From the NCBI GenBank assembly GCA_043732185.1, contig JAYTHY010000112.1:76376-140375 (forward strand): a DNA stretch of 64,000 nucleotides. The letters are read 5' to 3'. Below, one piece after another: positions 19,488-63,885 of the stretch. The position numbers and the translations under genes were made by a program. Each line of letters opens with the position of its first letter. Position 1 is the stretch's first letter. A model generated the notes under the pieces. It saw nothing but the letters and a program-made list of their open reading frames with translations. It had not been told where the DNA came from and did no database searches. Source of the stretch: Fibrobacteria bacterium (lineage in GTDB: Bacteria; Fibrobacterota; Fibrobacteria; UBA11236).

Positions 19488-19503
19488 GTTCCTTGGTCTT
19501 TAA

Positions 19504-20664
19504 TTACTGGCCTGCTGTGACGCTGCCGATGATTTCTTCTTTGGTATGGTAACCGTCGGCAACCACAGTCTCCATTAGGTTTTCCTTGGTGACTGGAATT
19601 GGCGTGAGAAAAACTGCGGGAACCTGAAATGTACCATTGGCGATTTTAACTTCGGAAACTGTGGAATCGTTGTTTGGCTGCGTAGTTTCTATTGCCTGAC
19701 CAGAGTTTTCAGTGTTTTGTCCCAGCGCAGCCTTCTCGGCCTTCACTGCCGCGACAGCCGCATATTCTGCAAGTGCGCGAATAGGTTTGTATACGGTTAC
19801 CGTTTGAATGCCTTTCCAAATGTATTGACAGGCAATAAGGTCGGCATCCTGCCCGGATACTGGCACCTTTCCGGCAAGCTTTTTGTCCTCCAAAGCCGAT
19901 ATTGCGCCGGAAGCGGTGCCGTCGTTGCTGGCGAGAATGGCGTCCACCTGATACTTTTGCAATGCATCTGCGGTGATGCGGCGCGCCTCCGATCGAAGCC
20001 ATTTGTCACAGGCTTGATTGGCCACGATTTTTATATCGCCTCGGTCCAAATAGGGCTGAAGCACTTTCATATGGCCTGCATGGACCATATCCGAATTTTT
20101 GTCGGCAGGATCCCCGCGTAAGATCAGGTAATTTCCCTTGGGTTTTTTACCCACCAAAGCCTGAGCTTGGATTTCCCCCACTTTTTCATTGTCAAAAGAC
20201 AAGTATAGGTCTACTTCCGAATCGGCAATGAGTCGATCATAAGAGATCACTTTAACATGTTTGGCATGGGCATTCAGAACAATAGGTCGGGCGGCGTCTG
20301 CATTTTTTGGAACCACCACCAATACCTGAACGCCTTTTGCCAAGAGCCCATCGCATTGCCGGGCCTGCGAATTGGGATCTCCGCCAGCATCTTGGACAAT
20401 AACTCGGGCCCCTAGACTTTCAGCTTTGGCGACAAAATAATCTCGATCGCGTTGCCATCTTTCCTCTTTAAGATCGGCCAGAGAAAGCCCAATTAATACC
20501 TGTGCAGACTTTAGGTTGTGGGAAGAGTTGTCTGTTTTGGCTGTATCTTTTTGTGATTGGCAACCCAGCATGCAAACGCCAAGGATGACCATGGCCCATT
20601 TCAAGAGGCCCAAGCCCTGGGTCAATGCCGGCTTGGCTGCAATGGCAGATTTTATAGGTGACAT
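19504..20664 (-). CDS. xylF: D-xylose-type ABC substrate-binding lipoprotein (XylF-like)
   Basis: EERWQRDRD, ISYDRLI, SFDNEKVG, SGQDAD and QTVTVYKPI; lipobox MLGC. AAGGA lies 8 nt before ATG 20664 (the ORF track starts at 20718). Confidence 0.85.
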   Translation of the reverse strand: MSPIKSAIAAKPALTQGLGLLKWAMVILGVCMLGCQSQKDTAKTDNSSHNLKSAQVLIGLSLADLKEERWQRDRDYFVAKAESLGARVIVQDAGGDPNSQARQCDGLLAKGVQVLVVVPKNADAARPIVLNAHAKHVKVISYDRLIADSEVDLYLSFDNEKVGEIQAQALVGKKPKGNYLILRGDPADKNSDMVHAGHMKVLQPYLDRGDIKIVANQACDKWLRSEARRITADALQKYQVDAILASNDGTASGAISALEDKKLAGKVPVSGQDADLIACQYIWKGIQTVTVYKPIRALAEYAAVAAVKAEKAALGQNTENSGQAIETTQPNNDSTVSEVKIANGTFQVPAVFLTPIPVTKENLMETVVADGYHTKEEIIGSVTAGQ

Positions 20665-20775: not shown

Positions 20776-20791
20776 TGTGATAAAGCTCACA
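20776..20791. promoter_or_regulatory. CRP/FNR-family binding site (perfect CRP consensus)
   Basis: TGTGA-TAAAGC-TCACA in the divergent intergenic region between xylF and the giant protein gene. Confidence 0.7.
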
Positions 20792-20953
20792 GCCTAGTTT
20801 AGGTTTTACATCAGACTTAGCGTTAACTCCACCGAATTTGGGGTACTGGAGCTTCTGTTTTAGAATGTCGCATTGACCCTGATCCTTACCATACGATAAG
20901 ATTCCCAGGAGCCCGATCGTTTTCAGTCGAGGTTTTGAACGGAAAAACCATAA

Positions 20954-35900: not shown

Positions 35901-38047
35901 CGGCTGCGGATCAAACACTGTTCGTCGACGACGATGATTCAACCGGCTTCATGGGCGAAGCGGGGAAGATGAAACAACTGACCGTGTCCGTAACTACTGG
36001 TGATAAGATTGTCATCAAGAACTTTACGGATACGGTTTTCGGGTCTCCAACGAGCGGCCAGTGGTATTCAGAACTGGATTTGAATGGCTGGAACACGTCC
36101 ACGGCTTCGAGGGTTGTGGATAGCGGGTTTGGAGAGTTCAATGTCTGGAAGGCCGCGGCCATCAATCCCAATCAGGCGATTTCGATTTCCACCAATCAAG
36201 TAGGACAGGACGATGATCAGGGCCGAACCTTGGCGGGTTTAAGACTGGATGGATCCGGAAATTCCATGAATAGTAGTGGCTCCGGGTATCTCGGACCCAC
36301 GCCTGCCATGACTTATACCATTATCGATTCTTCCGCAACCCGCATTTCCTTGTTGATGCAAACGGCATCCCTTTCTTCGTCCGATGGAACGGCCAGTTTG
36401 GCTAAGCGCTGGACCGTATATCCTAATGGAAGGATATTCGGAAGCTTTCAGCTGTCGTCACCCAGTTTCAATATGGATGCGCCCGCACTGGACATAACGG
36501 GGCGGTATAACAGTGCCGTAGACACGACCTGGACGGATACCTATGCAGCAGCGCAGGGTCGGCGAGGACTAAAAGGTGGCAACTTGGGTTTCCATTCCGT
36601 AGTGGGCGGTGTGTTGAGTGTCAAGAATGCTACTTCCACTTATAAAACTGCCGGTGCGACCATTTCAGGCTCTTCACCGTCCAGTGGCAATGCGTCAAAC
36701 CAAGACTTCCACAAGATTCGCCTTTCGATGCTCACTTCGCTATTCACCTCCGCCAACGCGCCAATTACCACTAATTTTGCCGTGGACATTTCCAAAGATT
36801 TTACCGATTCAGCGACTGCCGATAGCTTAATGATTGACCTTCAAACTCCGGCAACGATTACGGGTACAGGTGCCAATCCGTCCGATGCCATGGACTTCGG
36901 TAGTTTAGCGCCACTTAGCACTCCGGACGGCTTTGCCGAAGGCGATGGAGCGTATGTCTATACGGCTGCATCCGGCCTAGCGAAATTCAAGTTTGTGAAT
37001 ACCGTAACCAGTTTCAGCCCCGCATTCCGAATCAAGAGTTGGACTTACGGGACCTTACCGGAGTATGTGATTGTTGACGATCAGACCTTGACGCTCGGGT
37101 ACCATTACAATGCCTATATCAATTCAGCGACCGATGAGCTCATCATGCAGTTCAACCGAAACTATGCACCCGGTACGCATACGTTCTACATCAGCCATAA
37201 ATCCGGTTTGGCCGTGACTTTGCGCACCTTTGAAGCCAAGAATGGCGAGGGCGTGGACACGCTGAAATGGTCTACGGAGAGCGAGTTCGAGAACTTAGGC
37301 TTCAGCGTGTACAGGCGTCTGGCGTCTGCAGAGGAGCAAATTGATACCAGTCTGGCCGGTGGAACCAAGGTGGCCGGAGCAGGCATCGCCAATGCACTCA
37401 TGGATGCTGCCCGTTCGTTGGCCACTGCCAAGACTGCGGCCCGTCTGGCTAAGGCAAAGGCTAAAGCCCAGGCTAAAGCCATGGCTAGTAACAGTGCAGA
37501 TACGGTCGGTTTGAATGCCGCAGAAGACACGCTGCCTAGTTTGGATCTCTCGGCGGAAGAGTTGGCATTGCTTGGTTACGAAAAGCTCAATGCCAAACTC
37601 ATACCCGGTGCTAAGGGGGGAACCTCCTCAACCACGCAGACCTATCAATTTGTAGACCGAGCTGCGGCCTTTGGCGTTGCGTATGAATATGTACTCGAGG
37701 CCGTGGACTTTAGCGGCACCCGGCAGCAATATGGACCTCGCATAGCTAGGCCGTTCAATATTTTGACTACCGAACTGTATGCGAACTATCCCAATCCGTT
37801 CAACCCGATTACCACTTTGCACTTCTCATTAAAGGACAAGGCTAAAATTAGCTTGGTTATTTTCGATGGCAAGGGTAGGGTAGTGCGCACGTTACTCCGT
37901 CCGGATAAAGCCATGTTGCCAGGTAAGTATCGGCTCATTTGGGATGCCAAAAACGAAGGTGGTATGGAAGTGCCGTCGGGGCAATATTTTTATCGCTTCC
38001 TGGCACCCAATTACACCAAAACCCGGAAAATGATCCTCGTCAAATAG
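20954..38047 (+). CDS. Giant (5697 aa) surface/adhesin protein: autotransporter-associated beta-strand repeats, 5x DUF2341-LamG, right-handed beta-helix/choice-of-anchor-Q-like, LamG, FlgD-Ig/T9SS-like CTD
   Basis: Repeated TKxGxGTxTLSGxNTYTG; five NxPxLxRL..DIRF..WVKVP..DExRxS modules; VYVDS..GND and [45 protein letters not shown]...[16 protein letters not shown]. Confidence 0.9.
24188..26242 (+). repeat. Five tandem 411-bp (137-aa) intragenic repeats, with a sixth isolated copy at 22871-23281
   Basis: The NTY codons recur at 24188, 24599, 25010, 25421, 25832 and 26243, an exact 411-bp period. Confidence 0.95.
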
Positions 38048-50860: not shown

Positions 50861-52015
50861 TTAGAGGCGACAGGATACTTCCCCTGTGGGTAGAACGCCT
50901 AACCAAACTCCCATCCCCATTTTGGCGTGTTCGGATCCCAAGACTGGGACTACGCCTGTTTCCGGTTGCAGGATAATTTTTATTTGATACTCGAGAGGAT
51001 CTCGTAAGTAGGCATCAATCAGCTCGCGTACTTGGGCTAGCAAGGGTATCTCATTCTCCGCAGATTGGGTACCGCTAAGTTGAGCGGGATCCGAATCGCC
51101 GTTGGCTGAAGAATTAGGAGTAGCCGGCAAAAAACGATTGAAAAGGGAACGGGACAGTGGGCCAATTTCAACCGTGAACCGAGACTGACAATCCTGCATC
51201 ATGTCACCCAGGCGGGTGGATTTGCCCAATGCAACCTGGGCCTGCCCCAGGCAGGTTTTAACTGGAATTTCAACCCAGGAGGATTCAAACTCACGAATTT
51301 TAACTAGTGGGAATCCAAAATATCCGCGTAGCAATTGCTGTAAGCCTTTGGCCGATCGCACTCTATTTCCCAGGAATCTGGCATACGGAATGCGCTTGAG
51401 ATGGAAATCTGAGACGGGTGATGAACCTTGATTTTTGCCTTGGCGACGGGGCCATTGCCCAGTCAACGCCAAGAGCCGAAGTGTGTAATCATCCGGGCGA
51501 TCGGGAATAAACTGGGAATAATGGCGGTATTTCTTCCAGGAACGATAAAACAAGGAGTAAAGCCGATGGGTAAAAATATCCAGGAACTTCTTCAGTTCAA
51601 AATATTCAATTTTTTTTAATGTGATTGGGTCGACAAAATAGGACGGTAACGGAGAAGATACCCCGTATAGGCCCATAAATGTCAATATCATACGCAGGGG
51701 GCCTTCCCCCAATTTGGGGAGTTCCAGCAATGGAGGGATATCTTTAGCGGTGATCACTGGTCCATCATTGTCCTTGCCCGCTTCCAATTTCTCGGCTTGA
51801 CGTTTAAAGGACTGCGGGGGCAGTACAGCGGAAATTTCCGAAGCCGGAAAGCCCAGGGTATTCAGCGTTTCAAAACGAATGGGTTCTGAAAGCATATCAT
51901 CACCGGTTCCAACCCTTCCGGCACCGGAAAATAACCGCTCCAGCAAATATGCGGCTTGAAAAAAATTGAGTTCGTTCCCCTCTTCCAGGAAAACTTTGTT
52001 TAAATCAAGTGGCAT
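50861..52015 (-). CDS. tssG: T6SS baseplate subunit TssG
   Basis: FFQAAYLLE, LGFPASEI, FMGLYGVSSPLP, FLDIFTHRL..LFYRSWKKY and RSAKGL; overlaps tssF. Confidence 0.93.
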   Translation of the reverse strand: MPLDLNKVFLEEGNELNFFQAAYLLERLFSGAGRVGTGDDMLSEPIRFETLNTLGFPASEISAVLPPQSFKRQAEKLEAGKDNDGPVITAKDIPPLLELPKLGEGPLRMILTFMGLYGVSSPLPSYFVDPITLKKIEYFELKKFLDIFTHRLYSLFYRSWKKYRHYSQFIPDRPDDYTLRLLALTGQWPRRQGKNQGSSPVSDFHLKRIPYARFLGNRVRSAKGLQQLLRGYFGFPLVKIREFESSWVEIPVKTCLGQAQVALGKSTRLGDMMQDCQSRFTVEIGPLSRSLFNRFLPATPNSSANGDSDPAQLSGTQSAENEIPLLAQVRELIDAYLRDPLEYQIKIILQPETGVVPVLGSEHAKMGMGVWLGVLPTGEVSCRL

Positions 52016-53751
52016 CGGCCTTCCCGTGGGGGCAATGTGAAGCCCTTTCCAGAAGGTTGCAGCAGCACCTTCAAAGATATGAGATGATTTATAGAGCTAT
52101 AGAGCGTAAAAAACTCAAGTAATACGCGGGCAAAGATATGCAGCTCCCCAGTTTCGGCAAAGGCCCCGTCCCTGATTTCCACGGTAATTTCCGCTCCCGA
52201 TACCAATTGCGAATCGAGCAGAAAATTCTTTTTCCCTGTCGAAGCTCCAAGCACACCGTCTATGAATTTCCGGTTCACGGCGCTATGCGTCCAATCATAA
52301 AGCGAAAGAATTTCTTTCAGGTTTCCTTTTTGGCACAAAGAACGGTAATTCATATTCATGTGCGACAGCACATACCATAAATAATGGTCAGACTTGGGAG
52401 GATACACTGGGACGGTGGGTCGGGTAAAATTGTAGAATTCACAAAATCCAGGGAAATCTGCGCCGGGATTCACAATTCCTTTTTCTAAAATAGCCTCACG
52501 CGGAATGGACCCATTAGTAGCAAGTATAGTTACGGAAAGGAATTCCTCTGCTAATTCCGCCACAGGTTTTTGCGTTCCTACGGATATATAGGTTTGAAAT
52601 TGATTCTTACCTTGACTCTCTTGACGCGTCTGCCAGTAGGAATCCATTGCCTCGCTGCCTTTAGCCAGGATTTGATGGCGAAATTCATTGAACTTTTGAA
52701 AGGGACGCTGTTGACCGGTATTTTTGTCCACGCCAATCACCGATTGAACCTCATAGATTTCCATCTGGTGTTTGTTATCCGCATAGCATCGATATTCAAA
52801 ATGTTTTTGATTGACGTTAATGGGTTCGCTTTGGGTTTGGTAGATGTTTACTATGGGTGTGGCATGGATTTTAAAATTCTCGATTTTAAACCGCTTGCCA
52901 TCAGGAATGGGCTCAAGGAAGTAAAACGTTAAGGTGAACTGGCGCGTTTTTGCCATGAGGCTGATTTTGTCGAGGTTTTTAACTTTGATAAAGCGGAACT
53001 TTTCTTCAAAGGCAAAGAACTCCTGCAGAAAGCGGCTGCCTTCAAAGGAATTGTCCAATTGTGGCAATAGGCTTTCGTTTTCCCCAAAGCCGCCTGGCTC
53101 TATCAATTCCTGGCCACCCAAGATTTCCGTATATCCATCGCCTTCCAATATGATTTTGGAAATCCGTTCCGTGAAAAAGTAATGCAGAAAATAGCCGAGT
53201 GTGCGTTCGCCATGTAGGAAAATCGGGAGTTCCGGAATCTTGAGCTGGGCCAGGTCCGCGCCTTTGTCCAATTGGAAACCCAAACTGATACCTTCTCCAT
53301 AGATGGGATGATGCTGCATCTCGGCTGTCTTCAAAACCAAGGGATAGATGGTAACATCCTGGGTACTCTGGAAGCGGCAAATTGTGAGGTCCGACCCCAC
53401 TGGATTGGATAGGAAAATGGTCCCGCGTTGGATGACATGGGGTTTGGACAACATGTTTTCGCGGAATACCATTTGCAGCATGGCCAGCGAGGGGATGCAG
53501 CGCAAAAAGGCCGGGTCCACCATTTCCATCAGATTCTGAGAAAATTCTGGGAAGTCATCTTCCAATTTCTGACGGATGCGACCGGTTAGGAATGCAAATC
53601 CCTCGAAAAGTCGCTCAACATAGGGATCCCGGTCTTCCAGCGTGGTGATATTGAGGTAACGCGCACGTTCCGGGAAAGCTTCGGCGAATTCTTTCCCGCC
53701 TTCGGCTAGAAAGCGCAGTTCTTCATCGTAAAATTTTTCGTAATCAGACAT
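52000..53751 (-). CDS. tssF: T6SS baseplate subunit TssF
   Basis: YDEELRFL..EFAEAFP..DPYVERLFEGFAFL..KLEDDFPE, LQEFFAF and TPIVN. AGGAG lies 8 nt before ATG 53751. Confidence 0.95.
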   Translation of the reverse strand: MSDYEKFYDEELRFLAEGGKEFAEAFPERARYLNITTLEDRDPYVERLFEGFAFLTGRIRQKLEDDFPEFSQNLMEMVDPAFLRCIPSLAMLQMVFRENMLSKPHVIQRGTIFLSNPVGSDLTICRFQSTQDVTIYPLVLKTAEMQHHPIYGEGISLGFQLDKGADLAQLKIPELPIFLHGERTLGYFLHYFFTERISKIILEGDGYTEILGGQELIEPGGFGENESLLPQLDNSFEGSRFLQEFFAFEEKFRFIKVKNLDKISLMAKTRQFTLTFYFLEPIPDGKRFKIENFKIHATPIVNIYQTQSEPINVNQKHFEYRCYADNKHQMEIYEVQSVIGVDKNTGQQRPFQKFNEFRHQILAKGSEAMDSYWQTRQESQGKNQFQTYISVGTQKPVAELAEEFLSVTILATNGSIPREAILEKGIVNPGADFPGFCEFYNFTRPTVPVYPPKSDHYLWYVLSHMNMNYRSLCQKGNLKEILSLYDWTHSAVNRKFIDGVLGASTGKKNFLLDSQLVSGAEITVEIRDGAFAETGELHIFARVLLEFFTLYSSINHLISLKVLLQPSGKGFTLPPREGRCHLI

Positions 53752-53773
53752 GGACCCTGCTCCTAGCCGGCCG

Positions 53774-54217
53774 TCAAGCCGAACGTCCCCGTAAAGGCTG
53801 CACCTTTGACTCGCCGGTGCTGGTGAAACTGGTTTGAAAGGAAATACGCTCGCCACCTTTTACAGAAGCGCTTAGCTCAAAACTTATTCGAAATTCCAAT
53901 GGGGTGGTGGGGATTGGTCGTATGCGAACTCGGTCCAGCCTGGGCTCGTATTTGGTAATGAGCGCGAGAATGGTTTGCTCCAACTCCTTTAGACTCAAGG
54001 GAAGCTTGCGGTAGATTTCCGTGATATCCGGCAACCCGTAATCCGGAAGGTGGGGAACGGAACCTTGACGCGTGTTGAACATGCGCCATAGATGATCGGA
54101 GATGCTTTTGGCACGCCGGAATTCTCTTGGTACAGCTTCAATGGCCGTTCCATCGGCATATTGATCAGCCAGTTTTTCGAAAAGTCCTTCAGACCAGGAA
54201 GCTTTAGGATTCGCCAT
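53774..54217 (-). CDS. tssE: T6SS baseplate subunit TssE (gp25-like)
   Basis: SISDHL..MFNTRQG....PDYGLPD...I.KYEPRL. Start placed at MANPKAS because the longer ORF runs through terminator hairpins. Confidence 0.9.
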   Translation of the reverse strand: MANPKASWSEGLFEKLADQYADGTAIEAVPREFRRAKSISDHLWRMFNTRQGSVPHLPDYGLPDITEIYRKLPLSLKELEQTILALITKYEPRLDRVRIRPIPTTPLEFRISFELSASVKGGERISFQTSFTSTGESKVQPLRGRSA

Positions 54218-54268
54218 GTTTGAGAAAAAATAGCAATTCTGAGCAGTCTTAAATTTCGCTTGGCCTTG

Positions 54269-54304
54269 AAAAAGCCGAAGCCGGAAGGATGTCCTACCGG
54301 CTTC
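54269..54304 (-). terminator. Probable intrinsic terminator downstream of the hcp pair
   Basis: Minus strand GAAGCCGG-tAGGAcaTCCTt-CCGGCTTC-ggcTTTTT. A second 8-bp hairpin, GTCCGGTG/CACCGGAC, lies at 54333-54360. Confidence 0.6.
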
Positions 54305-54395
54305 AAAGAGGTCACAACCCAGTCCCGCTAGAGTCCGGTGACGTGGCGACCCCACCGGACAAATCGAGGCATTGAATTTTTAATGGAAAACAGTT

Positions 54396-54884: not shown

Positions 54885-55000
54885 AGTACTGCTCCTGTGT
54901 AAAAAATTTGGTTAATCGATTGTTAAAAGAACTCTGATTTTGATTTCCTGGGCAATGTACTGCGTCATACCCAGGTTTTATTTCCTGATTCCCTACAGGA

Positions 55001-55492
55001 TTAGCCGGATACTGGTGCTTCCCAATCGTCCATTGCAGTGATGCCGCCATCATTCCAATGCCATTCGATTTTCTGGTAAGTGAAAGCCACCTCTTCATAT
55101 TCGGCGAACTTCATCAGGTCGGGATGCTTATTATTAGCCATTCGGAAGGCTATGGAGGCAATATTGGCATTCGTCAACTTGATGGTGTAGTGCTGCTTCT
55201 CTGCGCCAGTCGAGGAAGGGGTCCAGAACTGAAGCTCCCATTCGGGAATGTTTTCATTGTTCACGAGTACATTGTAAAGGAGGGGAGTGGACTTGTCCAA
55301 CTCCTTGGTGATGGTAAAAGGCTTATGCATGCGCTTACCGGTAGGCAGGCCGGATGCAGCATCACGAGGTGAAACGATTTCATGTGAAACCGCGATGACG
55401 GCGATTTTGCCCTCGCGCCCTTTTTGGGTTACGGAACCCTTGAGCTCGCCTTGTTTTTGTCCCTTCAACTTAAGGTATGCGTTCAATGCCAT
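55001..55492 (-). CDS. hcp: T6SS tube protein Hcp/TssD (copy 1)
   Basis: Same motifs as copy 2; AAGGAG RBS. Confidence 0.96.
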   Translation of the reverse strand: MALNAYLKLKGQKQGELKGSVTQKGREGKIAVIAVSHEIVSPRDAASGLPTGKRMHKPFTITKELDKSTPLLYNVLVNNENIPEWELQFWTPSSTGAEKQHYTIKLTNANIASIAFRMANNKHPDLMKFAEYEEVAFTYQKIEWHWNDGGITAMDDWEAPVSG

Positions 55493-55566
55493 GTTAGTAC
55501 TCCTTTGTGTAACTGAGAGGGTTGTGTGTGTGATGAAATATAGTTCATCTTTTTCTCTCTTTCCTT

Positions 55567-55609
55567 AAGTTAATACTTTGGCGAACGAGAGTCTGTGACC
55601 GCGGTCACA
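55567..55609 (-). promoter_or_regulatory. Class II CRP/FNR-family-dependent promoter for the hcp pair
   Basis: Perfect palindrome TGTGA-CCGCGG-TCACA (55594-55609). A minus-strand -10-like TAACTT at 55572-55567 puts the box centre at -41.5. Confidence 0.7.
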
Positions 55610-55653
55610 CAGATGCTCTTGGTGTGATGAATGATCCCCACCAGCGGTAAAAT

Positions 55654-55685
55654 AAAAAAAGGCGGAGGGAAAACCCTCCGCCTTT
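55654..55685 (-). terminator. Strong intrinsic terminator after tssC
   Basis: Minus strand AAAGGCGGAGGG-TTTT-CCCTCCGCCTTTTTTT. Confidence 0.92.
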
Positions 55686-55735: not shown

Positions 55736-57229
55736 TTATTTTCCTTTGGGCATCTGCGAAACGAGCTGCAGATTGACATCGATGCCTTCAACTTGGAAAT
55801 GCGGGCTCACAGCCATAGTCACACGGAAAAATCCGGGATTGTCGGCGATTTCTGTAACCTTGACTTCTGCTGCGCTTAACGGACGAAGCGCTGCAACGGC
55901 CGGGCTTGGATTCTTCATTTCCGTGACCAGGTTCTTGATCCAGTTGTTCAATTCGTCCTGCAATACCGCTGCATTTTTAGTCGCACCGATATTTTCGCGT
56001 TGGATCACTTTAAGGTAGTGCGCCAAACGAGATGTGAGGAATATATAAGGTAGGCGTGAATTGATGCGACTGTTGGCGGTTACTCCAGGGTCATCATATA
56101 GCTGGGCCTTCTGAGCGGAATTAGCCGAGAAGAAGCAGGCATAATTACGGTTCTTATAAAAGCTCAAGGGAATGAAACCTTGGTTCGCAAATTCAAATTC
56201 ACGGGTTTCCGGAATCAAAATTTCGGTGGGGATCTTCATCTGGTTGCCGCGGCCTACATCATAGAGATGAATAGGTAAGTCCTCGACTTTGCCGCCGGCT
56301 TCCGGTCCACGGATGCCCACGCACCAACCATTTTCCGCAAAGGAGCGGCTGAGGTTGGCTGCCAAGGAGAAGGTGGCATTGCCCCAGAGATACTTGTCGT
56401 GCTGGTCACCGGTGACCTTTTCCTTATAGACAAATTCCTTTACCGGAACGGTGTCTGGGCCATACGGGAGGCGAAGCAAAAAGCGTGGCAACACCAAGCC
56501 AACATAGCGGGAGTCTTCCGATTCCCGGAAAGCCTTCCACTTCAAATATTCGGCTCTTTCCATATAATTGGCCAAATCTTCAATGGCGGGGAGCTCGCTG
56601 GCGTTCTTGCGATTGAAGAACTGGGCACCTACCGACCCGATGAAAGGGCAATGGGCTGAAGCGGAAATCTTTGAAATGTTCTGCAACAGGCTGATATCCT
56701 GCGGCTTCGAGGTGAACTCGTAATTGGAGATAATGGCTCCAACGGGTTCGCCACCGGGCGTATCGTATTCTTGTGTGTAGATATGCTTGTACATGCCTGT
56801 CTGAATGGTTTCGGGAGCATCCTCGAAATCTTCCAACAAGTTTGCCTTGGCAATATCCAGCATTTCGATTTTAATATTTTTTCGGAAATCGGTCCGGTCA
56901 ACTAGGAACTTGACTCCCTTCCAAGACGATTCCAATTTCTGGAATTCGGGATGGTGCAGGATCGCGTCCAACTGCGAGGACAGCTTTTCGTCCAGTGCAG
57001 CAATTTGCTGATCCAAAACCGTTTTGTCGATTTTCTCAACGGTGCTGCTGCTTTCGGCGATTGCCCCGATAAAGACGCGCAATGCTGCAGTGACACGTTT
57101 ATTCGCTTCCACATCACCGAAATCTTGTTCTTCACGGAACAACATAAGGTCGACGGGTTTATCCGGCGCGGCCTTGATGTCCATGTATTCCAGGATCTCG
57201 TTGACTAGGGATTTCTTTTCCTCTGCCAT
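55736..57229 (-). CDS. tssC: T6SS contractile sheath large subunit TssC
   Basis: QLDAILHHPEFQKLESSW, EYDTPGGEP, AHCPFI, LPRFLLRLPYG, IRGPEAGGKVEDLP and RLAHYLKVIQRENIG. Confidence 0.97.
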   Translation of the reverse strand: MAEEKKSLVNEILEYMDIKAAPDKPVDLMLFREEQDFGDVEANKRVTAALRVFIGAIAESSSTVEKIDKTVLDQQIAALDEKLSSQLDAILHHPEFQKLESSWKGVKFLVDRTDFRKNIKIEMLDIAKANLLEDFEDAPETIQTGMYKHIYTQEYDTPGGEPVGAIISNYEFTSKPQDISLLQNISKISASAHCPFIGSVGAQFFNRKNASELPAIEDLANYMERAEYLKWKAFRESEDSRYVGLVLPRFLLRLPYGPDTVPVKEFVYKEKVTGDQHDKYLWGNATFSLAANLSRSFAENGWCVGIRGPEAGGKVEDLPIHLYDVGRGNQMKIPTEILIPETREFEFANQGFIPLSFYKNRNYACFFSANSAQKAQLYDDPGVTANSRINSRLPYIFLTSRLAHYLKVIQRENIGATKNAAVLQDELNNWIKNLVTEMKNPSPAVAALRPLSAAEVKVTEIADNPGFFRVTMAVSPHFQVEGIDVNLQLVSQMPKGK

Positions 57230-57264
57230 TTTTTCTCCTTGTTCTCGTTTTGCCTGGATGTTAA

Positions 57265-57789
57265 TTAAGCAGGTTTGGCAGCATCATCGCCGCCTTCGCC
57301 CATGGGTACAATCTTGTCCAATTCGGCTACCAAGCTATCCATGGCGCCGCGATCCTGCATGATGGCTTCGAGTTTCTTACGGAACTCTTTGTTGTCCATC
57401 AAGTTGGATTTTAAATCCTTGATCAAATTGCGCGCCGCCAGAAGCTTGGAAAGCTGCGGAACCTGCTTGACGATTTCCAGAGGATCAAAAGACTTCATGT
57501 TTTTGAACTTCAGGTCGACTTTGATGTCACCGCCACCGGGATTGACCTTGTTCTCAACACTCATGTTCAGGCCCAGATCCATGGATTCCATTACCTGGTT
57601 GAAATTGTCTTTATTGATATTGATCTTTTCCTTGTCCACCAAGCGCGTGGAGTCACCCTTTTGGGAGAAGTCACCTAATACCAGCATCTTAAAGGGGAGC
57701 TCGGTTTTTTTCTGGGCTCCACCCTTATCGATATCGAGTTTGATGTTTACGCGTGCCGGAGGGATCTCGTTTTGGAAACTGCCTGCCAT
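57265..57789 (-). CDS. tssB: T6SS contractile sheath small subunit TssB
   Basis: SFQNEIPPARVNIKLD...ELPFKMLVLGDFS and QVPQLSKLLAARNLIKDLK. Confidence 0.96.
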   Translation of the reverse strand: MAGSFQNEIPPARVNIKLDIDKGGAQKKTELPFKMLVLGDFSQKGDSTRLVDKEKININKDNFNQVMESMDLGLNMSVENKVNPGGGDIKVDLKFKNMKSFDPLEIVKQVPQLSKLLAARNLIKDLKSNLMDNKEFRKKLEAIMQDRGAMDSLVAELDKIVPMGEGGDDAAKPA

Positions 57790-57844
57790 TTGCTTTCTCC
57801 TGATTAGTTGGGCTATAAAAAGTAAAGTCGGTAAGGTAGCAACA

Positions 57845-59362
57845 TTATTTGATGTCGGTTACCAAGGCTAGTACGGGGTCCAATTTAGATATTTGGGCAT
57901 GTACCGCAAGGGCTTTTTCCCTGAAAATGTGTTTGAGTCCCTCTTCTGCGGATTCGGAAAGGGCGAGGTAGACCTTTTGAGAAAGGGCATAAACCGATAC
58001 GCACAATTCAGTATCCCAGCGAATCAAGGCATATTGCTCGATGGCGACTAATAAATCGTCAATCAATGCCTTGGAAATATTCATTTTATTGCTTTTGTAG
58101 CATAATTCAGCCATTATCAATTTGCGGTCAAAGTTGTTCTTTTCATTGGAGTCATTGGCGACGCCGGTACGTAACACATTCAAGGCTTGGTCGAGCTTGC
58201 CTTCGCCGAGTAGGGTGGAGGCCTGTTTCTGTTCTTCCCCAACATCCCCTTTTTTCTTAATGGGTGCCGGTCCACCGCCGCCACTTCCACCCAGAACAGG
58301 AAAGACCTCGGTTTGAATCCATTCTTTTGTCATCGCGTCGGCGAAAGGTGTGCCGTCATCAAAGGCTAGGTCCATCAAAGTAGGTAAGCGGCTCAGCAAT
58401 AGGGCTAATTCAATCCGAATGGCTTTGGTAGCCGGGGCAAATTCTGGCCCAACTCCAATGAGTGCCGTACAAATAAAGCGCTGTAAATCAAACCAGAACA
58501 GCATGCCATCAGCTGAAAAAGCATCTTCTCCATTTTTGGCTAAATCCGGCCACAGTTGCTCTTGAAACAAATTTCTGAAGGCTTCCACCGTGGCGGAGTA
58601 GGGCGCGGGCACCATGGTTTTCCCGCCCGTGCTGGGCGGAGGGGATTCAATGGGCTCCCATTTGAGCATACGCATGATACGGTAGGGAAAGGGATTCGCT
58701 TGGTTTTCCGTACTTAAAAAACTCGCCGCATTTTGCATGGCCATGAAGCAATCATCAACGGAACCCAAAACGCCCGGTCCGGTGCTGACGGGTGCTGCTT
58801 CGGATGAGGTCTGCGTCTGCTGCTCTTCGATGGGCTTGGGTTTGTTTTTTTCTGCCAGCTCCCGAACAAATTTCGTGAAGCCCATAAAGGATGGCGCACC
58901 TTCAGGAAATTTCTGATCACAAAAGGCAACGAGTTTAGTCAATTCATCGGAGGCGGTTACTAGGATTTCGTAGGTCCCATGGGTCGAGATACCACCAAGG
59001 ATGGTCAGCAACCTTTCGCCGTTTAGCCACTTTAAAGTATTCGTACGGGCGGTGGGACGCTTGGGATGGATGTCGTCCCAATGTTCCATCACAAGTTTAC
59101 AATACGCAATCACGCTTTCAGCTAGGGCATCGGCGCCGGAATTGACGGCTGTAGACCAGGTCAGATACCCCATTACCCGCATATCCTTGGACTTTTTCAG
59201 TAGGAAGCGCTTGGACGCTTCCTCCATCACCGTAAAATTATTCTCGGAGCTTTTGTCCGCCTCGCCGCGGGCTGCTTCGAAATCGGCATCATAACTGCCG
59301 TCCTCTCCGCAGAAGGAGGTGTCGCTGATGGGTTTTAGGAGATCTTCGAGCAAAGAAGCCAT
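57845..59362 (-). CDS. tssA: T6SS TssA (ImpA_N + VasJ-type C-terminal region)
   Basis: LLKPIS..CGED..YD.DF, SKDMRV, WDDIHP.R..AR, FWFDLQR and FDDGTPFAD..T.EWI. Confidence 0.92.
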   Translation of the reverse strand: MASLLEDLLKPISDTSFCGEDGSYDADFEAARGEADKSSENNFTVMEEASKRFLLKKSKDMRVMGYLTWSTAVNSGADALAESVIAYCKLVMEHWDDIHPKRPTARTNTLKWLNGERLLTILGGISTHGTYEILVTASDELTKLVAFCDQKFPEGAPSFMGFTKFVRELAEKNKPKPIEEQQTQTSSEAAPVSTGPGVLGSVDDCFMAMQNAASFLSTENQANPFPYRIMRMLKWEPIESPPPSTGGKTMVPAPYSATVEAFRNLFQEQLWPDLAKNGEDAFSADGMLFWFDLQRFICTALIGVGPEFAPATKAIRIELALLLSRLPTLMDLAFDDGTPFADAMTKEWIQTEVFPVLGGSGGGGPAPIKKKGDVGEEQKQASTLLGEGKLDQALNVLRTGVANDSNEKNNFDRKLIMAELCYKSNKMNISKALIDDLLVAIEQYALIRWDTELCVSVYALSQKVYLALSESAEEGLKHIFREKALAVHAQISKLDPVLALVTDIK

Positions 59363-59392
59363 GCGGGGTTCCTCCTTCCGGATTTCAATGGA

Positions 59393-62300
59393 TCAGGGAG
59401 TGTTGGTGCTGGTTCGCGAATCCCCGTCTCCGCTTATGAGCGTAGCAGGCAAGTCGAAATGATAATATTCAGGGGAGGTAAAGGGGTTATCGCGATCGGG
59501 AATATTTCCTTCGATGGCGACATCCACATCGTACTTCTGGGCAACGTTGAAACGCCATTTGGCCGTGAGTCCGCCGGTTCTGAGATTCAAAGCGCGCGCG
59601 CCATCCAAAAGTTTCTGGAAGCCCCAAGGGCCATCCACTCGGCGGCCTTGTGAGCCTCCGTTGATGTTGTCAACCATAATCTCCGCGCCCTTATAACTGT
59701 TTTCAGTGGGCCAACGGAAAGTCTGTCGGACTTGGACTTCTCCCGGCTTAACGGAGATTTTGTCGTCACCGATTCTAAAAGTGACGCGAGCGGAATTGCG
59801 CGTCTCCAACAAGCTGATGTTAATATTGTAAACCCGCAAGCCCGCATCGGAATACATACGCTTGCTCACAGCCAAGGCTTTGGATATTCCCGTGAGCGTG
59901 GCTGGGTTGAAGGCAATGCGAATACCATTCCAATGTTTGGCGGAAACCACATCATCCTCAACTTTGACGAAGGGGAGTAGTTTGCCATTAAAGAAAAGTG
60001 GGAAGGCACCTTTGTCCGGACCAAAGAAAGCTTTTAAGTCTTCCAGATTGGCTTCTTGCGAACCGGTTTTAAGCAGAGGATAACGTCCCTTGAGATTTTG
60101 CGTATAGAAGGCAAGCACCTTGCTCTTGTAGGCTGCATCAAGTTGTGAGCCGGCTGCTGCGCCTAAATAGCTGGCTACGTTGCGCACGGGTGTTTCTAAT
60201 AAAGGAGGTAGCCAGGTTTGACCTTCATATCGGGTTCTTATTTTGTTGGCTTCATTCCAGCATGTATTGAGTGGGCTTTCGGATTTTCCAGCGAACAGGG
60301 CCTGAGCGGCATCCATAACATCGGTGCCGTTCTCGCCACCTTGGGCGAGTTTGGACAGCACTTCTGAAAGGCCGCGCACGGATCCAAAATAGTCCTGCAA
60401 CAATCCGGCTCCAGCTGGGCCACCATTCAACTCTTCCACAAATTTAAAGCGGTCCTTCAACAGTTTTTTATCGGCATCGCGGGCTTCCATCGCCATGGAA
60501 GCAAGTTTGCCAAGTTTTCCCATTTTCTTTTCGGCAGCCCCGACGGCTGCGGATGGCGGTGCCAGTAAGTTGACTTCAATCAGCAACCGAGACAACACTG
60601 CAGGCAGTCCTTGAGTGGTTGAAGCAAATCCACTGAGTTTGCCGGAAGCCTGTCCCGGATCCTGGGGTAAACGAACCGAAAGGCTTTGTAAGAAACGCAG
60701 CCATTCCTCGGCATATTCCTGATAATACTTGTCAACCAATGCGCGGTACAGCTGCTTTTGATCTTGCATTTCAGGAGGTAATGTCGTGACAGCACCTTCC
60801 CCCAATACCCAGTCGCGTTGATGTGGTTCTTCGGCACCTTGCGCAAGTTTATCCATAGCATCGTCATCAAAAGCTGCCTTGGTGTAGAACCCCCGGACTT
60901 TACCGCCACTTTTAAGCGCAGCATCTGCGGGAATTCCCATTTCGGTAATGGTCAAATCGCGGGCGGCATCTTCAGCCCCAACTATGGAGGCGTATAAGCC
61001 TTCAATACTGGGTGTGCCCACCAGACTTTGCCTAGTGGCCTTAACCAAATTGGCATCTCCGCGATCCAGTGCGGGAATCTTTCCGTCGAGAAAACGTTCG
61101 GCATAGTAATTGGCATGATCTTCAAGCCCTGTTTCCAAATTGGCGGCTAGATTTTCCGCTCCGTATTTGTGCATCGATTCCTGGGCCCAGGCTGGAGCCA
61201 ATAAAGAAGACAGTTCCTTGGCTTTGATTTCCTTGAAATGGGTGCGGCCTTCGGTGGTCAGCAGCAAATACAGTTTCAGATTTTCACGCAGCTTGGCGTG
61301 CTCCGCCGGGCTGTAGAACTTGGAAGCCACTTCCATATTAGCTGCCAAGGTCCGTAGGCCATCACGGCCGGCCATAAGATTTAATTCATAGGCATGTACT
61401 TGACTGGCAAGTTCCAGGGCTTCAGAAGAATGGCCAAACCCAGGTGGGAGATGACCACCTTGTCCGGACTCAAGACCGCGGATGGCTGCAAGCAGTTTAT
61501 CCATGACGGCATAGTTGGACCGGAAGTCCCGTGGTTCCCGCCAGTTCAAACGTCCGGCATCGGCGACTATTTTGGAAACGTCACCCAAGTAGGCACGGCT
61601 TTTGAGGAAGCCGGTCAGGCCGTAGATTAAAATGAATAGCCCAACGATGGACATTATGGCCGAAGTGATCAAAGCCTGGCGAGACAAGCTGCCAAGTCGA
61701 TAGCCGGGAATTTGGGCCAAGGACTTGTCGTTTTTGAGCACGCCACCAAAAAGGAGATAGGTAAAAAGTGCGCGGGGTCGAGACGTTTTTTCCGCTTTGG
61801 GCGCGGCACTGGGACCACGTAATTTTGATTTATGATCCAAGAAATGGGCGGCCTCACCACCTTGGTCCTGGAAGGGATCGCTGCCGCGAAGCTGACCCGC
61901 TTGACCCATTAAGTCACTGGGATCGGAAGGCATGACACTGGTTAAGAAAAAGCCGCGGAACATGGCGCGTTCCCGAGTCATGGTATCCTTGAAAAGGTGT
62001 TCCACAAAGGTGGCCATGCGCTCTTGTGCCGCTCCGAATTCATTTGGGAAGAGGAAAATCTGCTTGCGTTTCCCTGGCTCGCCCACCTGCGAAAGCCGTC
62101 CGGCAATTCGGTTCTGAAGCGAGTCCCAAATCTTTTTGTACTCCCGTTCAAATCGTACTTTGGCTGGAGCCAAATTTCCGCGTAACGCAAAAGTGGCACC
62201 CAAAACTTGATGGCTTTCCGGTTCCTGTAAATTTTCGAAAAATTCTCGGAAGCCCGGCAGCATATCAGAATGCGTGAACACCAAATAAATCGGCAATTCA

Positions 62301-63022
62301 AGGCGCAAAATCGACATGGCCATGGCCATTTTTTCTCGAAAGCGTGCGGCGATATCCGCAATAGGCTGTCCACCATCCAGTAACTCTTTTAGGCTAACTA
62401 CCACCAACACGCCATCAAGGGCGGAGCGTTTGCCTTCCTTGGCCAGCTGCGTCAACCAAAACTGAAATTCATCGTCGCCTTCTTCACCCGTGGCATATCG
62501 CGTAGGGGTTTCCAAAAATATTCCTTGATTGGAAAACCACCATTGTGTGAAGTGCTGGGTTTGCTTGGCCAAATCCGCTGCAGAAGGAAAGCGGCGGGGG
62601 AAATGAATACCGGAATGTTCAAGAATCGTAGTCTTGCCGGATTCCGTATTGCCAAACACCATGTAAAACTTGAAAATATCCAGCGGGTCTTGACCCATTT
62701 TCACCTTGCTCTTGCCGGACTGCTTGAGCACATCAAGGGCGCTCTTGGTTTCAATCTTGAGCGGTTCCTGCCAGGGCTTTAAGGATATTTCAGTCTCAAA
62801 AGGATTGATTTGCGACTGGTCTTGACTCTTCAGCGCTTTCTTTAAACGGAAAATACTGAGAACCAAAGTTACAAGACCTGCGATTAGCAATGGCACCAAG
62901 GACCATAGGATCCTTGCAAGCGAGTCTTTTAAACCCATCAGTGGAAGCAGGAAAAAAAGCGCTAATCCCAATAAAACCGCGGATGTCAACAACCAAAAGG
63001 TGAGTGATTTAAAAATTTTCAT
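59393..63022 (-). CDS. tssM: T6SS membrane complex subunit TssM (IcmF)
   Basis: Two N-terminal TMs, Walker A GNTESGKTT, WWFSNQ, LPIYLVFTH.D.LPGF.EFF, FRGFFLTS, a third TM, GRYP and GPWGFQKL. Confidence 0.93.
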   Translation of the reverse strand: MKIFKSLTFWLLTSAVLLGLALFFLLPLMGLKDSLARILWSLVPLLIAGLVTLVLSIFRLKKALKSQDQSQINPFETEISLKPWQEPLKIETKSALDVLKQSGKSKVKMGQDPLDIFKFYMVFGNTESGKTTILEHSGIHFPRRFPSAADLAKQTQHFTQWWFSNQGIFLETPTRYATGEEGDDEFQFWLTQLAKEGKRSALDGVLVVVSLKELLDGGQPIADIAARFREKMAMAMSILRLELPIYLVFTHSDMLPGFREFFENLQEPESHQVLGATFALRGNLAPAKVRFEREYKKIWDSLQNRIAGRLSQVGEPGKRKQIFLFPNEFGAAQERMATFVEHLFKDTMTRERAMFRGFFLTSVMPSDPSDLMGQAGQLRGSDPFQDQGGEAAHFLDHKSKLRGPSAAPKAEKTSRPRALFTYLLFGGVLKNDKSLAQIPGYRLGSLSRQALITSAIMSIVGLFILIYGLTGFLKSRAYLGDVSKIVADAGRLNWREPRDFRSNYAVMDKLLAAIRGLESGQGGHLPPGFGHSSEALELASQVHAYELNLMAGRDGLRTLAANMEVASKFYSPAEHAKLRENLKLYLLLTTEGRTHFKEIKAKELSSLLAPAWAQESMHKYGAENLAANLETGLEDHANYYAERFLDGKIPALDRGDANLVKATRQSLVGTPSIEGLYASIVGAEDAARDLTITEMGIPADAALKSGGKVRGFYTKAAFDDDAMDKLAQGAEEPHQRDWVLGEGAVTTLPPEMQDQKQLYRALVDKYYQEYAEEWLRFLQSLSVRLPQDPGQASGKLSGFASTTQGLPAVLSRLLIEVNLLAPPSAAVGAAEKKMGKLGKLASMAMEARDADKKLLKDRFKFVEELNGGPAGAGLLQDYFGSVRGLSEVLSKLAQGGENGTDVMDAAQALFAGKSESPLNTCWNEANKIRTRYEGQTWLPPLLETPVRNVASYLGAAAGSQLDAAYKSKVLAFYTQNLKGRYPLLKTGSQEANLEDLKAFFGPDKGAFPLFFNGKLLPFVKVEDDVVSAKHWNGIRIAFNPATLTGISKALAVSKRMYSDAGLRVYNINISLLETRNSARVTFRIGDDKISVKPGEVQVRQTFRWPTENSYKGAEIMVDNINGGSQGRRVDGPWGFQKLLDGARALNLRTGGLTAKWRFNVAQKYDVDVAIEGNIPDRDNPFTSPEYYHFDLPATLISGDGDSRTSTNTP

Positions 63023-63885
63023 GGCGCTGCCGGAGTCCTATTCTGCAGGCTTTCCACGGCCGTGCGGGCCAGGTCCAGGGAGCCGTCGCTGGCCAACATC
63101 ATGATCAAAAATAACAGAGTCGATAAAGCCAGAAAGATGGCTGAGCCGATGATGAGTGGGCGGCCACTTTTTTCCTGTCCCTTCACGCCAGGCTGAACAT
63201 AGGCGGCAGGTGAAATGGATTTGGGCGGTGTTCCTTTAACGCCCTCAATGCGCTTAAGGAGATTGCGTACCACATTCGGCAAGACTTCGGGTCCGGATAG
63301 ACGGTAGCGTCCCAAGAATCCGAGGGCCAAAACCAAATAATAAACTTCGATGACTTCTAGATTGCGCTTGAGGTCCGGAAGCAAGCTTTCGAGTCGTTTG
63401 AAAAAATTTTCACCAGCCAGGTTGTCGTTAAAAAAGGCGGTTTGCAAGGGCTCTTCAATCCAGCTTTCGCGGCAATTACTTTCCGAATTGACAATGGTTT
63501 CATCGATAAAGGCCGCCAAGGCATACTTGGCATGGTCGACGGATTCCGCAGACTTGCCATGCGACAGGCACGTCCTTTCAAAATCTTTGAAATAGGCGAG
63601 GATGAGTCGTTTTAATTGATCGGGTTGGCCCAAGTTTGAAGTCTCGCGGATTTTTACGCCGATGAGTAAAATATCCGTTGCCAGAATGGTCAATGCGGGC
63701 ACTTCTTTTTGGGCGGTAGCCGCACCGGATCCGAACAACGTCTGGCCCGCGCTTGCACCATTGCTGCCGAAAAGGGTTTGTACGGCTCCATCGGCCCAGT
63801 CCATACCATTGCCTTGCCCAAAAGCCGTGCGCATGGCCGGCTGAATGGGTTGTTGTAACGTTTTTTTCTGTCCAGGTTGCATCAT
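63019..63885 (-). CDS. tssL: T6SS membrane complex subunit TssL (DotU), without OmpA domain
   Basis: AKYALAAFIDE, W...PLQ, AGENFF.RL and EVYYLVLALGFLGRY; single C-terminal TM; ATGA overlap with tssM. Confidence 0.93.
   Translation of the reverse strand: MMQPGQKKTLQQPIQPAMRTAFGQGNGMDWADGAVQTLFGSNGASAGQTLFGSGAATAQKEVPALTILATDILLIGVKIRETSNLGQPDQLKRLILAYFKDFERTCLSHGKSAESVDHAKYALAAFIDETIVNSESNCRESWIEEPLQTAFFNDNLAGENFFKRLESLLPDLKRNLEVIEVYYLVLALGFLGRYRLSGPEVLPNVVRNLLKRIEGVKGTPPKSISPAAYVQPGVKGQEKSGRPLIIGSAIFLALSTLLFLIMMLASDGSLDLARTAVESLQNRTPAAP

What the first reader, a model, noticed from the sequence alone, without database searches (positions are those of the whole stretch)
55560..55609. Class II CRP-type promoter on hcp, matching the box at the sugar-uptake/adhesin locus: a candidate carbon-starvation 'attach-kill-scavenge' regulon
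Seen: a 16-bp perfect palindrome TGTGACCGCGGTCACA centred at 55601.5, with TAACTT at 55572-55567, which gives exactly -41.5 spacing (predicted TSS ~55560). The same consensus occurs at 20776. Chance expectation for this 10-base pattern in 64 kb is about 0.06 at equal base frequencies, and both hits I found by eye are intergenic. Established: class II CRP sites centre at -41.5, and cAMP-CRP promotes hcp expression in Vibrio cholerae. Inference: one CRP/FNR-family regulator ties T6SS firing capacity to sugar import and a giant adhesin, consistent with T6SS use for nutrient foraging.
Basis: partly seen in the sequence, partly recalled or inferred. Interest (0 to 1): 0.8.

Follow-up and report, generated by a model that had tools for sequence, protein, structure and literature searches.

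The report
One switch for killing and DNA-uptake
In an uncultured Fibrobacteria lineage, the same CRP-type DNA switch sits in front of the parts a cell fires to kill neighbours, the genes it uses to take up DNA, and giant surface proteins, suggesting a 'stick, kill and take the DNA' programme wired differently from the one known in cholera bacteria; the proposed link to sugar uptake did not hold.

Summary
The hcp box is real: TGTGACCGCGGTCACA at 55594-55609, 21 nt from TAACTT, class II geometry. Box and a TAnnnT at that spacing recur in 17 of 17 close hcp orthologues. The host is an uncultured Fibrobacteria with two CRP-type regulators that keep cAMP-pocket and TGTGA-reading residues. The same promoter design precedes vgrG, effector-like operons and crp2. 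A matrix trained only on T6SS promoters also finds it at comEC (17/30), comEA (14/26) and radC (17/30), but not dprA (0/29), the tssK operon head (0/27) or xylF (0/18). T6SS-less relatives keep the competence boxes. The 20776 box is not class II. It travels with the giant PATR protein, not xylF; homologous giants carry it at class I spacing. Class I cyclase, EIIA-Glc and TfoX_C were not found, so carbon-starvation signalling is unsupported. Best reading: a direct CRP 'attach-kill-take up DNA' regulon, convergent with Vibrio's TfoX/QstR circuit. Binding, start sites and co-induction are untested.

The parts
55594..55609 (.). CRP box TGTGA-N6-TCACA, class II position (-41.5) for hcp promoter P1
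   Evidence: at most 1 mismatch in 17 of 17 close hcp loci; half-site cores nearly or fully invariant in alignment A1
55567..55572 (-). -10 hexamer TAACTT of P1, 21 nt from the box; predicted +1 about 55560
   Evidence: T, A and final T invariant and no indel in the 21-nt gap across 15 aligned orthologues; TAnnnT at gap 21 in 17 of 17 close loci
55537..55542 (-). second conserved -10 (TATATT), candidate promoter P2, predicted +1 about 55530
   Evidence: conserved in A1 with indels between it and the box; coordinates; function inferred
55622..55638 (-). conserved upstream element GGGATC-N5-TCACAC, 12 nt upstream of the box (centre about -70.5); CRP half-site or site of another factor
   Evidence: present at fixed spacing in 14 of 17 close hcp loci
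55658..55685 (-). intrinsic terminator after tssC, insulating the hcp promoter
55500..55505 (-). ribosome-binding site AAGGAG of hcp1
55001..55492 (-). hcp1 (T6SS tube)
   Evidence: PF05638
54396..54884 (-). hcp2, 92% identical tandem copy, no box of its own
50861..54355 (-). tssE-tssF-tssG (baseplate), downstream of hcp2; co-transcription with hcp not established
   Evidence: terminator scan found none at 54100-54420
55736..63885 (-). tssL-tssM-tssA-tssB-tssC; operon head tssK lies at the end of contig C92 and has no box
20776..20791 (.). second CRP box; belongs to the giant PATR gene; not class II; about -120 to -125 from that gene's likely promoter
20873..20902 (+). sigma-70-like promoter of the giant gene (TTGACC-18-TAAGAT; TACGAT at 20892-20897 resembles the paralogues' -10)
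20954..38047 (+). giant secreted surface protein (likely start 21026): PATR repeats, DUF2341, LamG, C-terminal FlgD-Ig; adhesin role inferred
16804..20664 (-). xylF/xylG/permease-like sugar ABC operon, divergent from the giant gene; not a conserved regulon member
   Evidence: (below the xylF equivalog cut-off)

Best explanation
The box is the binding site of a cAMP-type CRP homologue (CRP1, present across the class, and its paralogue CRP2) that activates sigma-70 transcription from position -41.5. In this Fibrobacteria family the same promoter design was placed directly on the parts of the T6SS that are fired and lost (hcp, vgrG-DUF2169-PAAR, effector-like/immunity operons), on the DNA-uptake genes comEA(-pilM-pilN), comEC and radC, on lamin-tail and Ig-like surface proteins and on crp2, which has tandem boxes and would amplify the response. 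The giant PATR proteins are joined through class I sites. The anchored, reusable machine (tssK-L-M-A-B-C, clpV) is not boxed. The cell would thus load and fire its T6SS, stick to surfaces or cells, and import released DNA for food or recombination under one signal, with no Sxy/TfoX/QstR tier. Shown: sequence conservation, fixed spacing, gene content. Inferred: binding, activation, cAMP dependence, co-induction, effector identity, use of the DNA.
For: Box plus TAnnnT at exactly 21 nt: 10 of 19 top site-gene pairs in this genome against a mean of 0.38 at other gaps, with a matrix trained on other genomes' hcp boxes; vgrG has TGTGACCGCCGTCACC-21-TATAAT. Exact pattern GTGA-N6-TCAC-N22-TA-N3-T: 206 matches against 20 for the reversed control over 41 genomes (summed). 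Independent test, matrix from T6SS promoters only, strict TAnnnT at gap 20 or 21: comEC 17/30, comEA 14/26, radC 17/30, crp2 12/15, C105 protein 11/19; dprA 0/29, tssK 0/27, xylF 0/18. With the joint matrix: comEC 18 of 18 family loci and 0 of 12 outside, hcp 21/28, vgrG 18/27. Gene identities from Pfam/NCBIfam. T6SS-less G020, G022 and G024 (no tssK or vgrG found, 99-100% complete) keep boxes at comEC, comEA, radC and the LTD lipoprotein. CRP1 and CRP2 keep G71, E72, R82, R123, R180, E181, R185 (E. coli numbering); best solved relatives are actinobacterial CRP/FNR-family regulators, then E. coli CRP. crp2 boxes lie 33 or 43 nt apart in 13 of 14 genus loci with upstream DNA. One FHA-GAF class III cyclase.
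Against: No binding, start-site or expression data; the one RNA run was uninformative. dprA, comM, comF, ssb and pilB/pilC/pilT have no box, so the competence set is partial. The basic AR2 residues that E. coli CRP uses at class II promoters are not kept (N-terminal alignment uncertain). Competence boxes are absent outside family f1, and radC/comEA lack them in some family members (G018, G021; comEA also G016). Many boxed genes are uncharacterised lipoproteins or small mobile-type genes, so the regulon is broader than the label. Relatives are not independent. Natural competence has not been shown in this group in the papers searched.
Confidence: 0.66

Rival explanations
1. One reading: a carbon-starvation CRP regulon couples T6SS to sugar import (xylFGH) and the giant adhesin.
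For: Perfect box 111 nt upstream of the xylF-like start and kept with 1 mismatch beside xylF in G008; a TACCTT lies 68 nt from it towards xylF. A MalK-like ATPase gene (C28:21399; label from the sequence, not from a call) has a strong box without a class II -10, and a sugar-ABC-like gene (C130:8725) scores 14.1; neither was followed up. PtsH and PtsI are present.
Against: 0 of 18 xylF loci have the class II design; only G000, G008 and G023 have any good box, and G023's faces a divergent PAAR-like gene. Homology between the G000 and G008 giant-gene promoters starts at the box while the upstream neighbour differs. No class I cyclase or EIIA-Glc found with E. coli queries. Conserved targets are T6SS, DNA-uptake and surface genes.
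Confidence: 0.12
2. The box is a CRP site but the regulon is a general surface-contact or social programme (as with Vfr or Clp in other bacteria; recalled): surface proteins, T6SS and competence genes were recruited separately and are not functionally coupled as kill-then-take-DNA.
For: Large share of targets are Ig-like, LTD, PEGA and unknown lipoproteins; the cyclase carries FHA and GAF sensor domains; T6SS-less relatives keep the competence boxes, so those do not need the T6SS; hcp boxes extend to families f2/f3 where comEC has none.
Against: Both modules were boxed together across family f1; the boxed T6SS genes are specifically the fired parts; the pairing matches the tested V. cholerae behaviour (PMC6237807, passages). 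This rival differs mainly in interpretation, not in mechanism.
Confidence: 0.17
3. The site overlapping the -35 region is a repressor site, or is read by a different factor; the downstream P2 is the true hcp promoter.
For: P2 (TATATT) is also conserved; AR2 residues are not kept; 14 of 17 loci carry an extra unexplained element.
Against: A repressor needs no fixed 21-nt phasing to a -10 at many unrelated genes; no consensus -35 was found in the hcp intergenic region; only two HTH_Crp_2 proteins pass the cut-off and both have the TGTGA-reading helix.
Confidence: 0.05

Closest known systems
Class II CRP-dependent promoters of E. coli (site near -42)
   Same: TGTGA-N6-TCACA core, 21-nt gap to a TAnnnT -10, no consensus -35; regulator keeps cAMP-pocket and recognition-helix residues (PMC1635313 passages)
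   Different: AR2 basic residues not kept; targets are T6SS, DNA-uptake and surface genes rather than catabolic operons; no class I cyclase or EIIA-Glc found
Vibrio cholerae TfoX-QstR co-induction of competence and T6SS
   Same: T6SS and comEA/comEC under one programme with CRP upstream (PMC6237807, PMC4581735 passages)
   Different: There the link is indirect (TfoX, QstR, HapR, CytR), QstR binds upstream of vipA at the head of the large cluster, and hcp has a predicted sigma-54 promoter and needs RpoN (PMC2726435). Here each promoter carries its own CRP box, the main operon head is unboxed, TfoX_C was not found, and no sigma-54 match lies in the hcp promoter
CRP-S/Sxy competence regulon of Haemophilus influenzae and other gamma-proteobacteria
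   Same: CRP sites at DNA-uptake genes; radC and rec2 (comEC) in the regulon (PMC1635313)
   Different: CRP-S core is TGCGA, class I, Sxy-dependent, includes dprA, ssb, comM and pil genes and no T6SS; here the core is TGTGA (drifting to GTGC/GCAC at comEA), class II, with dprA, comM, ssb, pilB/C unboxed
Actinobacterial CRP/FNR-family regulators (PDB 3d0s, 3r6s; recalled as Mycobacterium CRP and Corynebacterium GlxR)
   Same: best solved relatives of CRP1, E 2.5e-33 and 2e-29, shared RRLR-x-[ST]N C-helix
   Different: different phylum and targets; similarity only about that of distant homologues

Membership tests
Class II CRP-dependent promoter | TGTGA-N6-TCACA site centred at -41.5 (21 nt to the -10 hexamer) | tested here: met
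   gap 21 in 17 of 17 close hcp loci; -10 is inferred from sequence
Class II CRP-dependent promoter | site replaces a consensus -35 | tested here: met
   no sigma-70 -35/-10 pair found in the hcp intergenic region
Class II CRP-dependent promoter | cognate CRP with R180/E181/R185 and cAMP pocket G71/E72/R82 | tested here: met
   CRP1 and CRP2; CRP2 has A at S83 (residue roles recalled)
Class II CRP-dependent promoter | AR2 (H19, H21, K101) contact surface as in E. coli | tested here: not met
   L, E, D in both homologues; N-terminal alignment uncertain
Class II CRP-dependent promoter | mapped start site, CRP binding and cAMP-dependent activation | not testable with these tools
   RNA run X1 held only contigs of relatives, none over the promoter
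FNR-type regulon | TTGAT-N4-ATCAA box and cysteine-ligated regulator (recalled) | tested here: not met
   box core is TGTGA in all orthologues; CRP1 has no Cys and CRP2 one
CRP-S/Sxy competence regulon | TGCGA core at class I positions | tested here: not met
   comEC, comEA, radC boxes keep GTG and sit at gap 20-21
CRP-S/Sxy competence regulon | Sxy/TfoX co-activator | tested here: not met
   PF04994 TfoX_C not found in the genome, 100% complete; TfoX_N not searched
CRP-S/Sxy competence regulon | regulon holds com genes, radC, dprA, comM, ssb, pil genes | tested here: inconclusive
   comEC, comEA, radC yes; dprA 0/29, comM, ssb, pilB/C no
V. cholerae TfoX-QstR T6SS/competence circuit | sigma-54 hcp promoter and regulator at the head of the main cluster | tested here: not met
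   no -24/-12 match in the hcp promoter; tssK head 0/27 for the CRP design; QstR not searched
Carbon-catabolite CRP regulon (E. coli type) | class I adenylate cyclase controlled by EIIA-Glc | tested here: not met
   cyaA and crr not found by tblastn or phmmer with E. coli queries; ptsH and ptsI found; one class III FHA-GAF cyclase
Carbon-catabolite CRP regulon (E. coli type) | sugar transport and catabolic operons as main targets | tested here: not met
   xylF 0/18; top class II hits are T6SS, DNA-uptake and surface genes; two sugar-ABC-like candidates not followed up

The most novel reading that the evidence does not exclude
Fibrobacteria independently evolved the kill-and-take-up-DNA coupling known from V. 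cholerae, but as a one-tier circuit: a CRP homologue, fed by a phosphothreonine-sensing FHA-GAF cyclase and amplified by a self-boxed paralogue, directly activates only the expendable T6SS parts (strongest sites) and the DNA-uptake genes (weaker sites, hence later), plus adhesins; the boxed unknowns (555-aa C105 protein, lamin-tail proteins with a PorV/PorQ-like barrel) are new DNA-capture components of this superphylum.
Probability: 0.45. Interest if true: 0.8.

Novelty: new variant of a known kind. Interest (0 to 1): 0.64.

Why it matters
Co-regulation of T6SS killing with DNA uptake is established in Vibrio and bears on the open question whether competence serves feeding or gene acquisition. 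A separately wired version in a distant, almost wholly uncultured phylum would be a case of convergence and suggest the coupling is a general strategy. The regulon also gives the first promoter grammar found here for these Fibrobacteria (CRP box, 21 nt, TAnnnT), a split between regulated ammunition and unregulated machine, and a short list of unknown genes predicted by guilt of association to be effectors or DNA-uptake parts. That dprA and comM stay outside the regulon while a YfbR-like deoxynucleotidase is boxed leans towards DNA as food, which is testable.

Tried and rejected
RNA evidence: one run with 0.05 of the words; contigs were short pieces of hcp and tssC relatives, none over the promoter; not used. 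xylF as target: rejected. My own interim view that the 20776 box was chance: dropped. recA and recQ hits lie inside the upstream coding genes: rejected. The perfect match at C42:38965 is inside a gene and C138:15873 inside a weakly called one: not counted. Sigma-54 promoter at hcp: none. FNR: rejected. TfoX: not found. Terminator after hcp2: scan found none, although a hairpin is visible by eye. C105 protein: no Pfam/NCBIfam family; Atlas gives unnamed Fibrobacterota clusters at recognition just under the threshold; the Riemerella transformation paper (PMC8459023, passages) did not identify it. Literature search for tandem-site synergy found nothing; that point is recalled. Rows dropped before counts: loci with under about 130 nt upstream or no tblastn hit in the script (comEA 4 of 30, tssK 3 of 30, xylF 3 of 21, vgrG 3 of 30, dprA 1 of 30, crp2 1 of 16, hcp L022 and L024, C105 1 of 20). 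Each genome search returned loci for at most 30 matches, so not all 41 genomes were scored. Of the 206 pattern matches, downstream ORFs were read for 118; 12 fetched sites gave no ORF. Gene calls in my scripts came from a simple home-made caller (3642 genes) that missed dprA and most of comF. No structure or complex prediction was run. No supplementary files were read; regulon tables in them could bear on the comparisons.

Full report
Observation. The 16-mer TGTGACCGCGGTCACA lies at 55594-55609, TAACTT at 55572-55567 on the minus strand, 21 nt apart. They sit between an intrinsic terminator after tssC (55658-55685) and two tandem hcp genes in a T6SS cluster tssL-M-A-B-C, hcp, hcp, tssE-F-G. 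The second match, TGTGATAAAGCTCACA at 20776-20791, lies between a divergent xylF-like ABC operon and a 5.7-kaa protein with PATR, DUF2341, LamG and FlgD-Ig domains. Expected perfect matches: 0.024 in the window and 1.2 in the genome, where there are 5. The closest named hcp relatives are uncultured Fibrobacteria.

The hcp promoter is under selection. A box with at most one mismatch precedes hcp in 17 of 17 close loci and in 5 of 12 more distant ones, reaching two other families of the order. In 15 aligned orthologues the half-site cores and the T, A, T of the -10 are fixed, the spacer varies, and the 21-nt gap has no indel. Two further features are conserved: a second -10, TATATT at 55542-55537, whose distance to the box varies, read as a separate promoter P2; and GGGATC-N5-TCACAC 12 nt upstream of the box in 14 of 17 loci, unexplained. 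No sigma-54 motif lies in this promoter.

The design recurs genome-wide. With a matrix trained on other genomes' hcp boxes, 10 of the 19 best intergenic site-gene pairs have TAnnnT exactly 21 nt downstream; other gaps average 0.38, maximum 4. A joint matrix gave 12 sites at gap 21 scoring 20 or more against 0-4 at other gaps from 10 to 45. The exact pattern GTGA-N6-TCAC-N22-TA-N3-T has 206 matches in 41 related genomes against 20 for the reversed control (summed). In this genome the class II hits are hcp; the single vgrG, heading vgrG-DUF2169-PAAR; a 601-aa protein followed by an Imm72 immunity gene; operons with OmpA/peptidoglycan-binding or lipase proteins (effector roles inferred); comEC, comEA-pilM-pilN-like, radC; two lamin-tail proteins, one followed by a PorV/PorQ-like barrel; a ComEC-like metallo-beta-lactamase fragment; holB-recJ; Ig-like lipoproteins; a sigma-54 activator; and crp2. 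A YfbR-like deoxynucleotidase and an integrase have the design at gap 20.

Conservation separates members from non-members. Joint matrix, score 10 or more (background 1.3% of genes): hcp 21/28, vgrG 18/27, crp2 14/15, comEC 18/30 (18 of 18 family loci, 0 of 12 outside), comEA 16/26, radC 21/30, tssK 0/27, dprA 0/29, xylF 3/18 with no proper -10. Because some comEC and crp2 loci were in that training set, I retrained on hcp and vgrG only and demanded a strict TAnnnT at gap 20 or 21: comEC 17/30, comEA 14/26, radC 17/30, crp2 12/15, the 555-aa unknown C105 11/19, dprA 0/29, tssK 0/27, xylF 0/18. clpV and crp1 have no box here; nor do comM, comF, ssb, pilB, pilC, pilT. Four near-complete family members in which tssK and vgrG were not found (G017, G020, G022, G024; G022 keeps hcp fragments) retain boxes at DNA-uptake genes. 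Kin are not independent, so these counts show conservation, not statistical replication. Unpublished genome G011 is among the genomes counted (one row each); no conclusion depends on it.

The 20776 box. It has no -10 at 21 nt either way. G008 holds a copy of the giant gene with a different upstream neighbour, and its homology to the window begins at the box, TGTGATGTGGCTCACA at the same distance. Six of 9 giant-gene loci carry a box scoring 11.9 or more (background about 1.5%); in four (G000 C51, G007, G009, G010) it lies 61-62 nt before TACAAT or TACGCT, a class I position near -82 (class I positions near -62, -72, -83, -93: PMC1635313, passages); three loci have none. In the window the box is farther, about -120 to -125 from TTGACC-18-TAAGAT, so its effect there is uncertain, and an effect on the divergent xylF in this one lineage cannot be excluded. 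The adhesin link is therefore partly right and the sugar link is not conserved.

Regulator and signal. Two HTH_Crp_2 proteins pass the cut-off. Both keep G71, E72, R82, R123 and R180, E181, R185 of E. coli CRP, but not the basic AR2 residues (residue roles recalled). CRP1 occurs across the class; CRP2 is in all 14 other genus members and has tandem boxes 33 nt (9), 43 nt (4) or 52 nt (1) apart in 14 genus loci, i.e. about -74.5 or -84.5 plus -41.5, a phased arrangement recalled as synergistic in E. coli (search found no paper). The only cyclase found is a class III enzyme with FHA and GAF domains; its catalytic motifs look adenylyl-specific (recalled rule, sequence). E. coli cyaA and crr found no match, ptsH and ptsI did. 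TfoX_C was not found. The glucose-PTS route to cAMP is thus unsupported; the true signal is unknown.

Mechanism. Shown: a conserved class II CRP-type design at fired T6SS parts, DNA-uptake genes, crp2 and surface proteins, and its absence at the anchored machine. Inferred: cAMP-CRP1 activates these promoters, CRP2 amplifies, near-perfect sites (hcp, vgrG) respond before the weaker comEA, radC and comEC sites, and the cell sticks, kills and imports DNA. Confidence 0.85 that the hcp box is a functional CRP site, 0.66 for the coupled regulon as stated.

Comparison. V. cholerae co-induces competence and T6SS through TfoX and QstR with CRP upstream (PMC6237807 and PMC4581735, passages; Borgeaud 2015 seen only as a reference title); its Hcp needs CRP and RpoN and the promoters have sigma-54 consensus (PMC2726435, passages). 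H. influenzae uses TGCGA class I sites with Sxy (PMC1635313), modulated by purine supply (PMC3739930, abstract and outline). This system works like those but is a member of neither. Searches found no paper with Fibrobacterota, CRP and regulon; listings for Fibrobacter with T6SS, Fibrobacteres with competence and CRP with T6SS and competence showed no such circuit by title or abstract start; supplied comparison papers. The library lacks most subscription journals. Earlier notes of this scan held nothing on it.

Verdict. Observation confirmed; interpretation partly supported and redirected from sugar to DNA. New variant of a known kind; interest 0.64.

Noticed in passing
L001, L152-L165 (crp1) and L136-L151 (crp2): crp1 lies directly behind purA in this genome and in 10 of 14 crp1-type loci; crp2 abuts purF in 11 of 16 loci. 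Both regulators neighbour purine-synthesis genes, echoing purine control of competence in Haemophilus.
   Followed up: partly
L420-L433 (comEA promoters): In the genus the comEA box drifts to GTG[CT]-N6-GCAC while keeping the 21-nt gap, a gene-specific variant that could mean lower affinity or preference for one CRP paralogue.
   Followed up: partly
L318, L519, L520, L524, L525, L526 (G022, G024): In T6SS-less relatives many class II promoters precede small mobile-type genes (DUF559, DUF6883, ORF6N, 23S rRNA intervening-sequence protein), in G024 with similar promoter sequences, as if a promoter cassette had spread.
   Followed up: no
L248:75-989 (G000 C11), L349, L398: Tyrosine integrases (Phage_integrase, some with SAM_4) carry the design in three genomes.
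   Followed up: no
L239:115-1779 (G000 C105): 555-aa protein of no Pfam or NCBIfam family with a class II box in 14 of 14 genus loci and 0 of 5 outside; candidate DNA-uptake or surface component.
   Followed up: partly
L241 (C88:47013) and C98:18494: Two paralogous 287-aa lipoproteins of no known family have strong boxes but a TAnnnT at 16-17 nt, not 21; one sits directly upstream of vgrG.
   Followed up: no
L181 and L304 (G023): radC and vgrG are divergent neighbours in this complete genome, both with boxes in the shared region.
   Followed up: no
L249 (C85:20199-26765): clpV stands apart from the T6SS cluster, between a Ser/Thr-kinase-like gene and an FHA-like gene (labels from sequence), fitting a phosphothreonine signal shared with the FHA-GAF cyclase.
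   Followed up: no
L036 (G008): Beside xylF only the box, about 20 nt and a scrap of the giant gene's 5' end remain; the promoter is deleted and the box has gained a mismatch.
   Followed up: yes
window 54396-55492; loci L064-L135: This Hcp is 63-89% identical to Hcp of Polyangiaceae, Bacteroidota and others, yet only 34-46% to Hcp of several Fibrobacteria with the same tssC-hcp layout, suggesting the coding sequence was replaced behind an older promoter.
   Followed up: no
G000 C42:32750-45203: A separate run of large baseplate-like genes (by sequence look) suggests an extracellular contractile injection system or prophage tail region.
   Followed up: no
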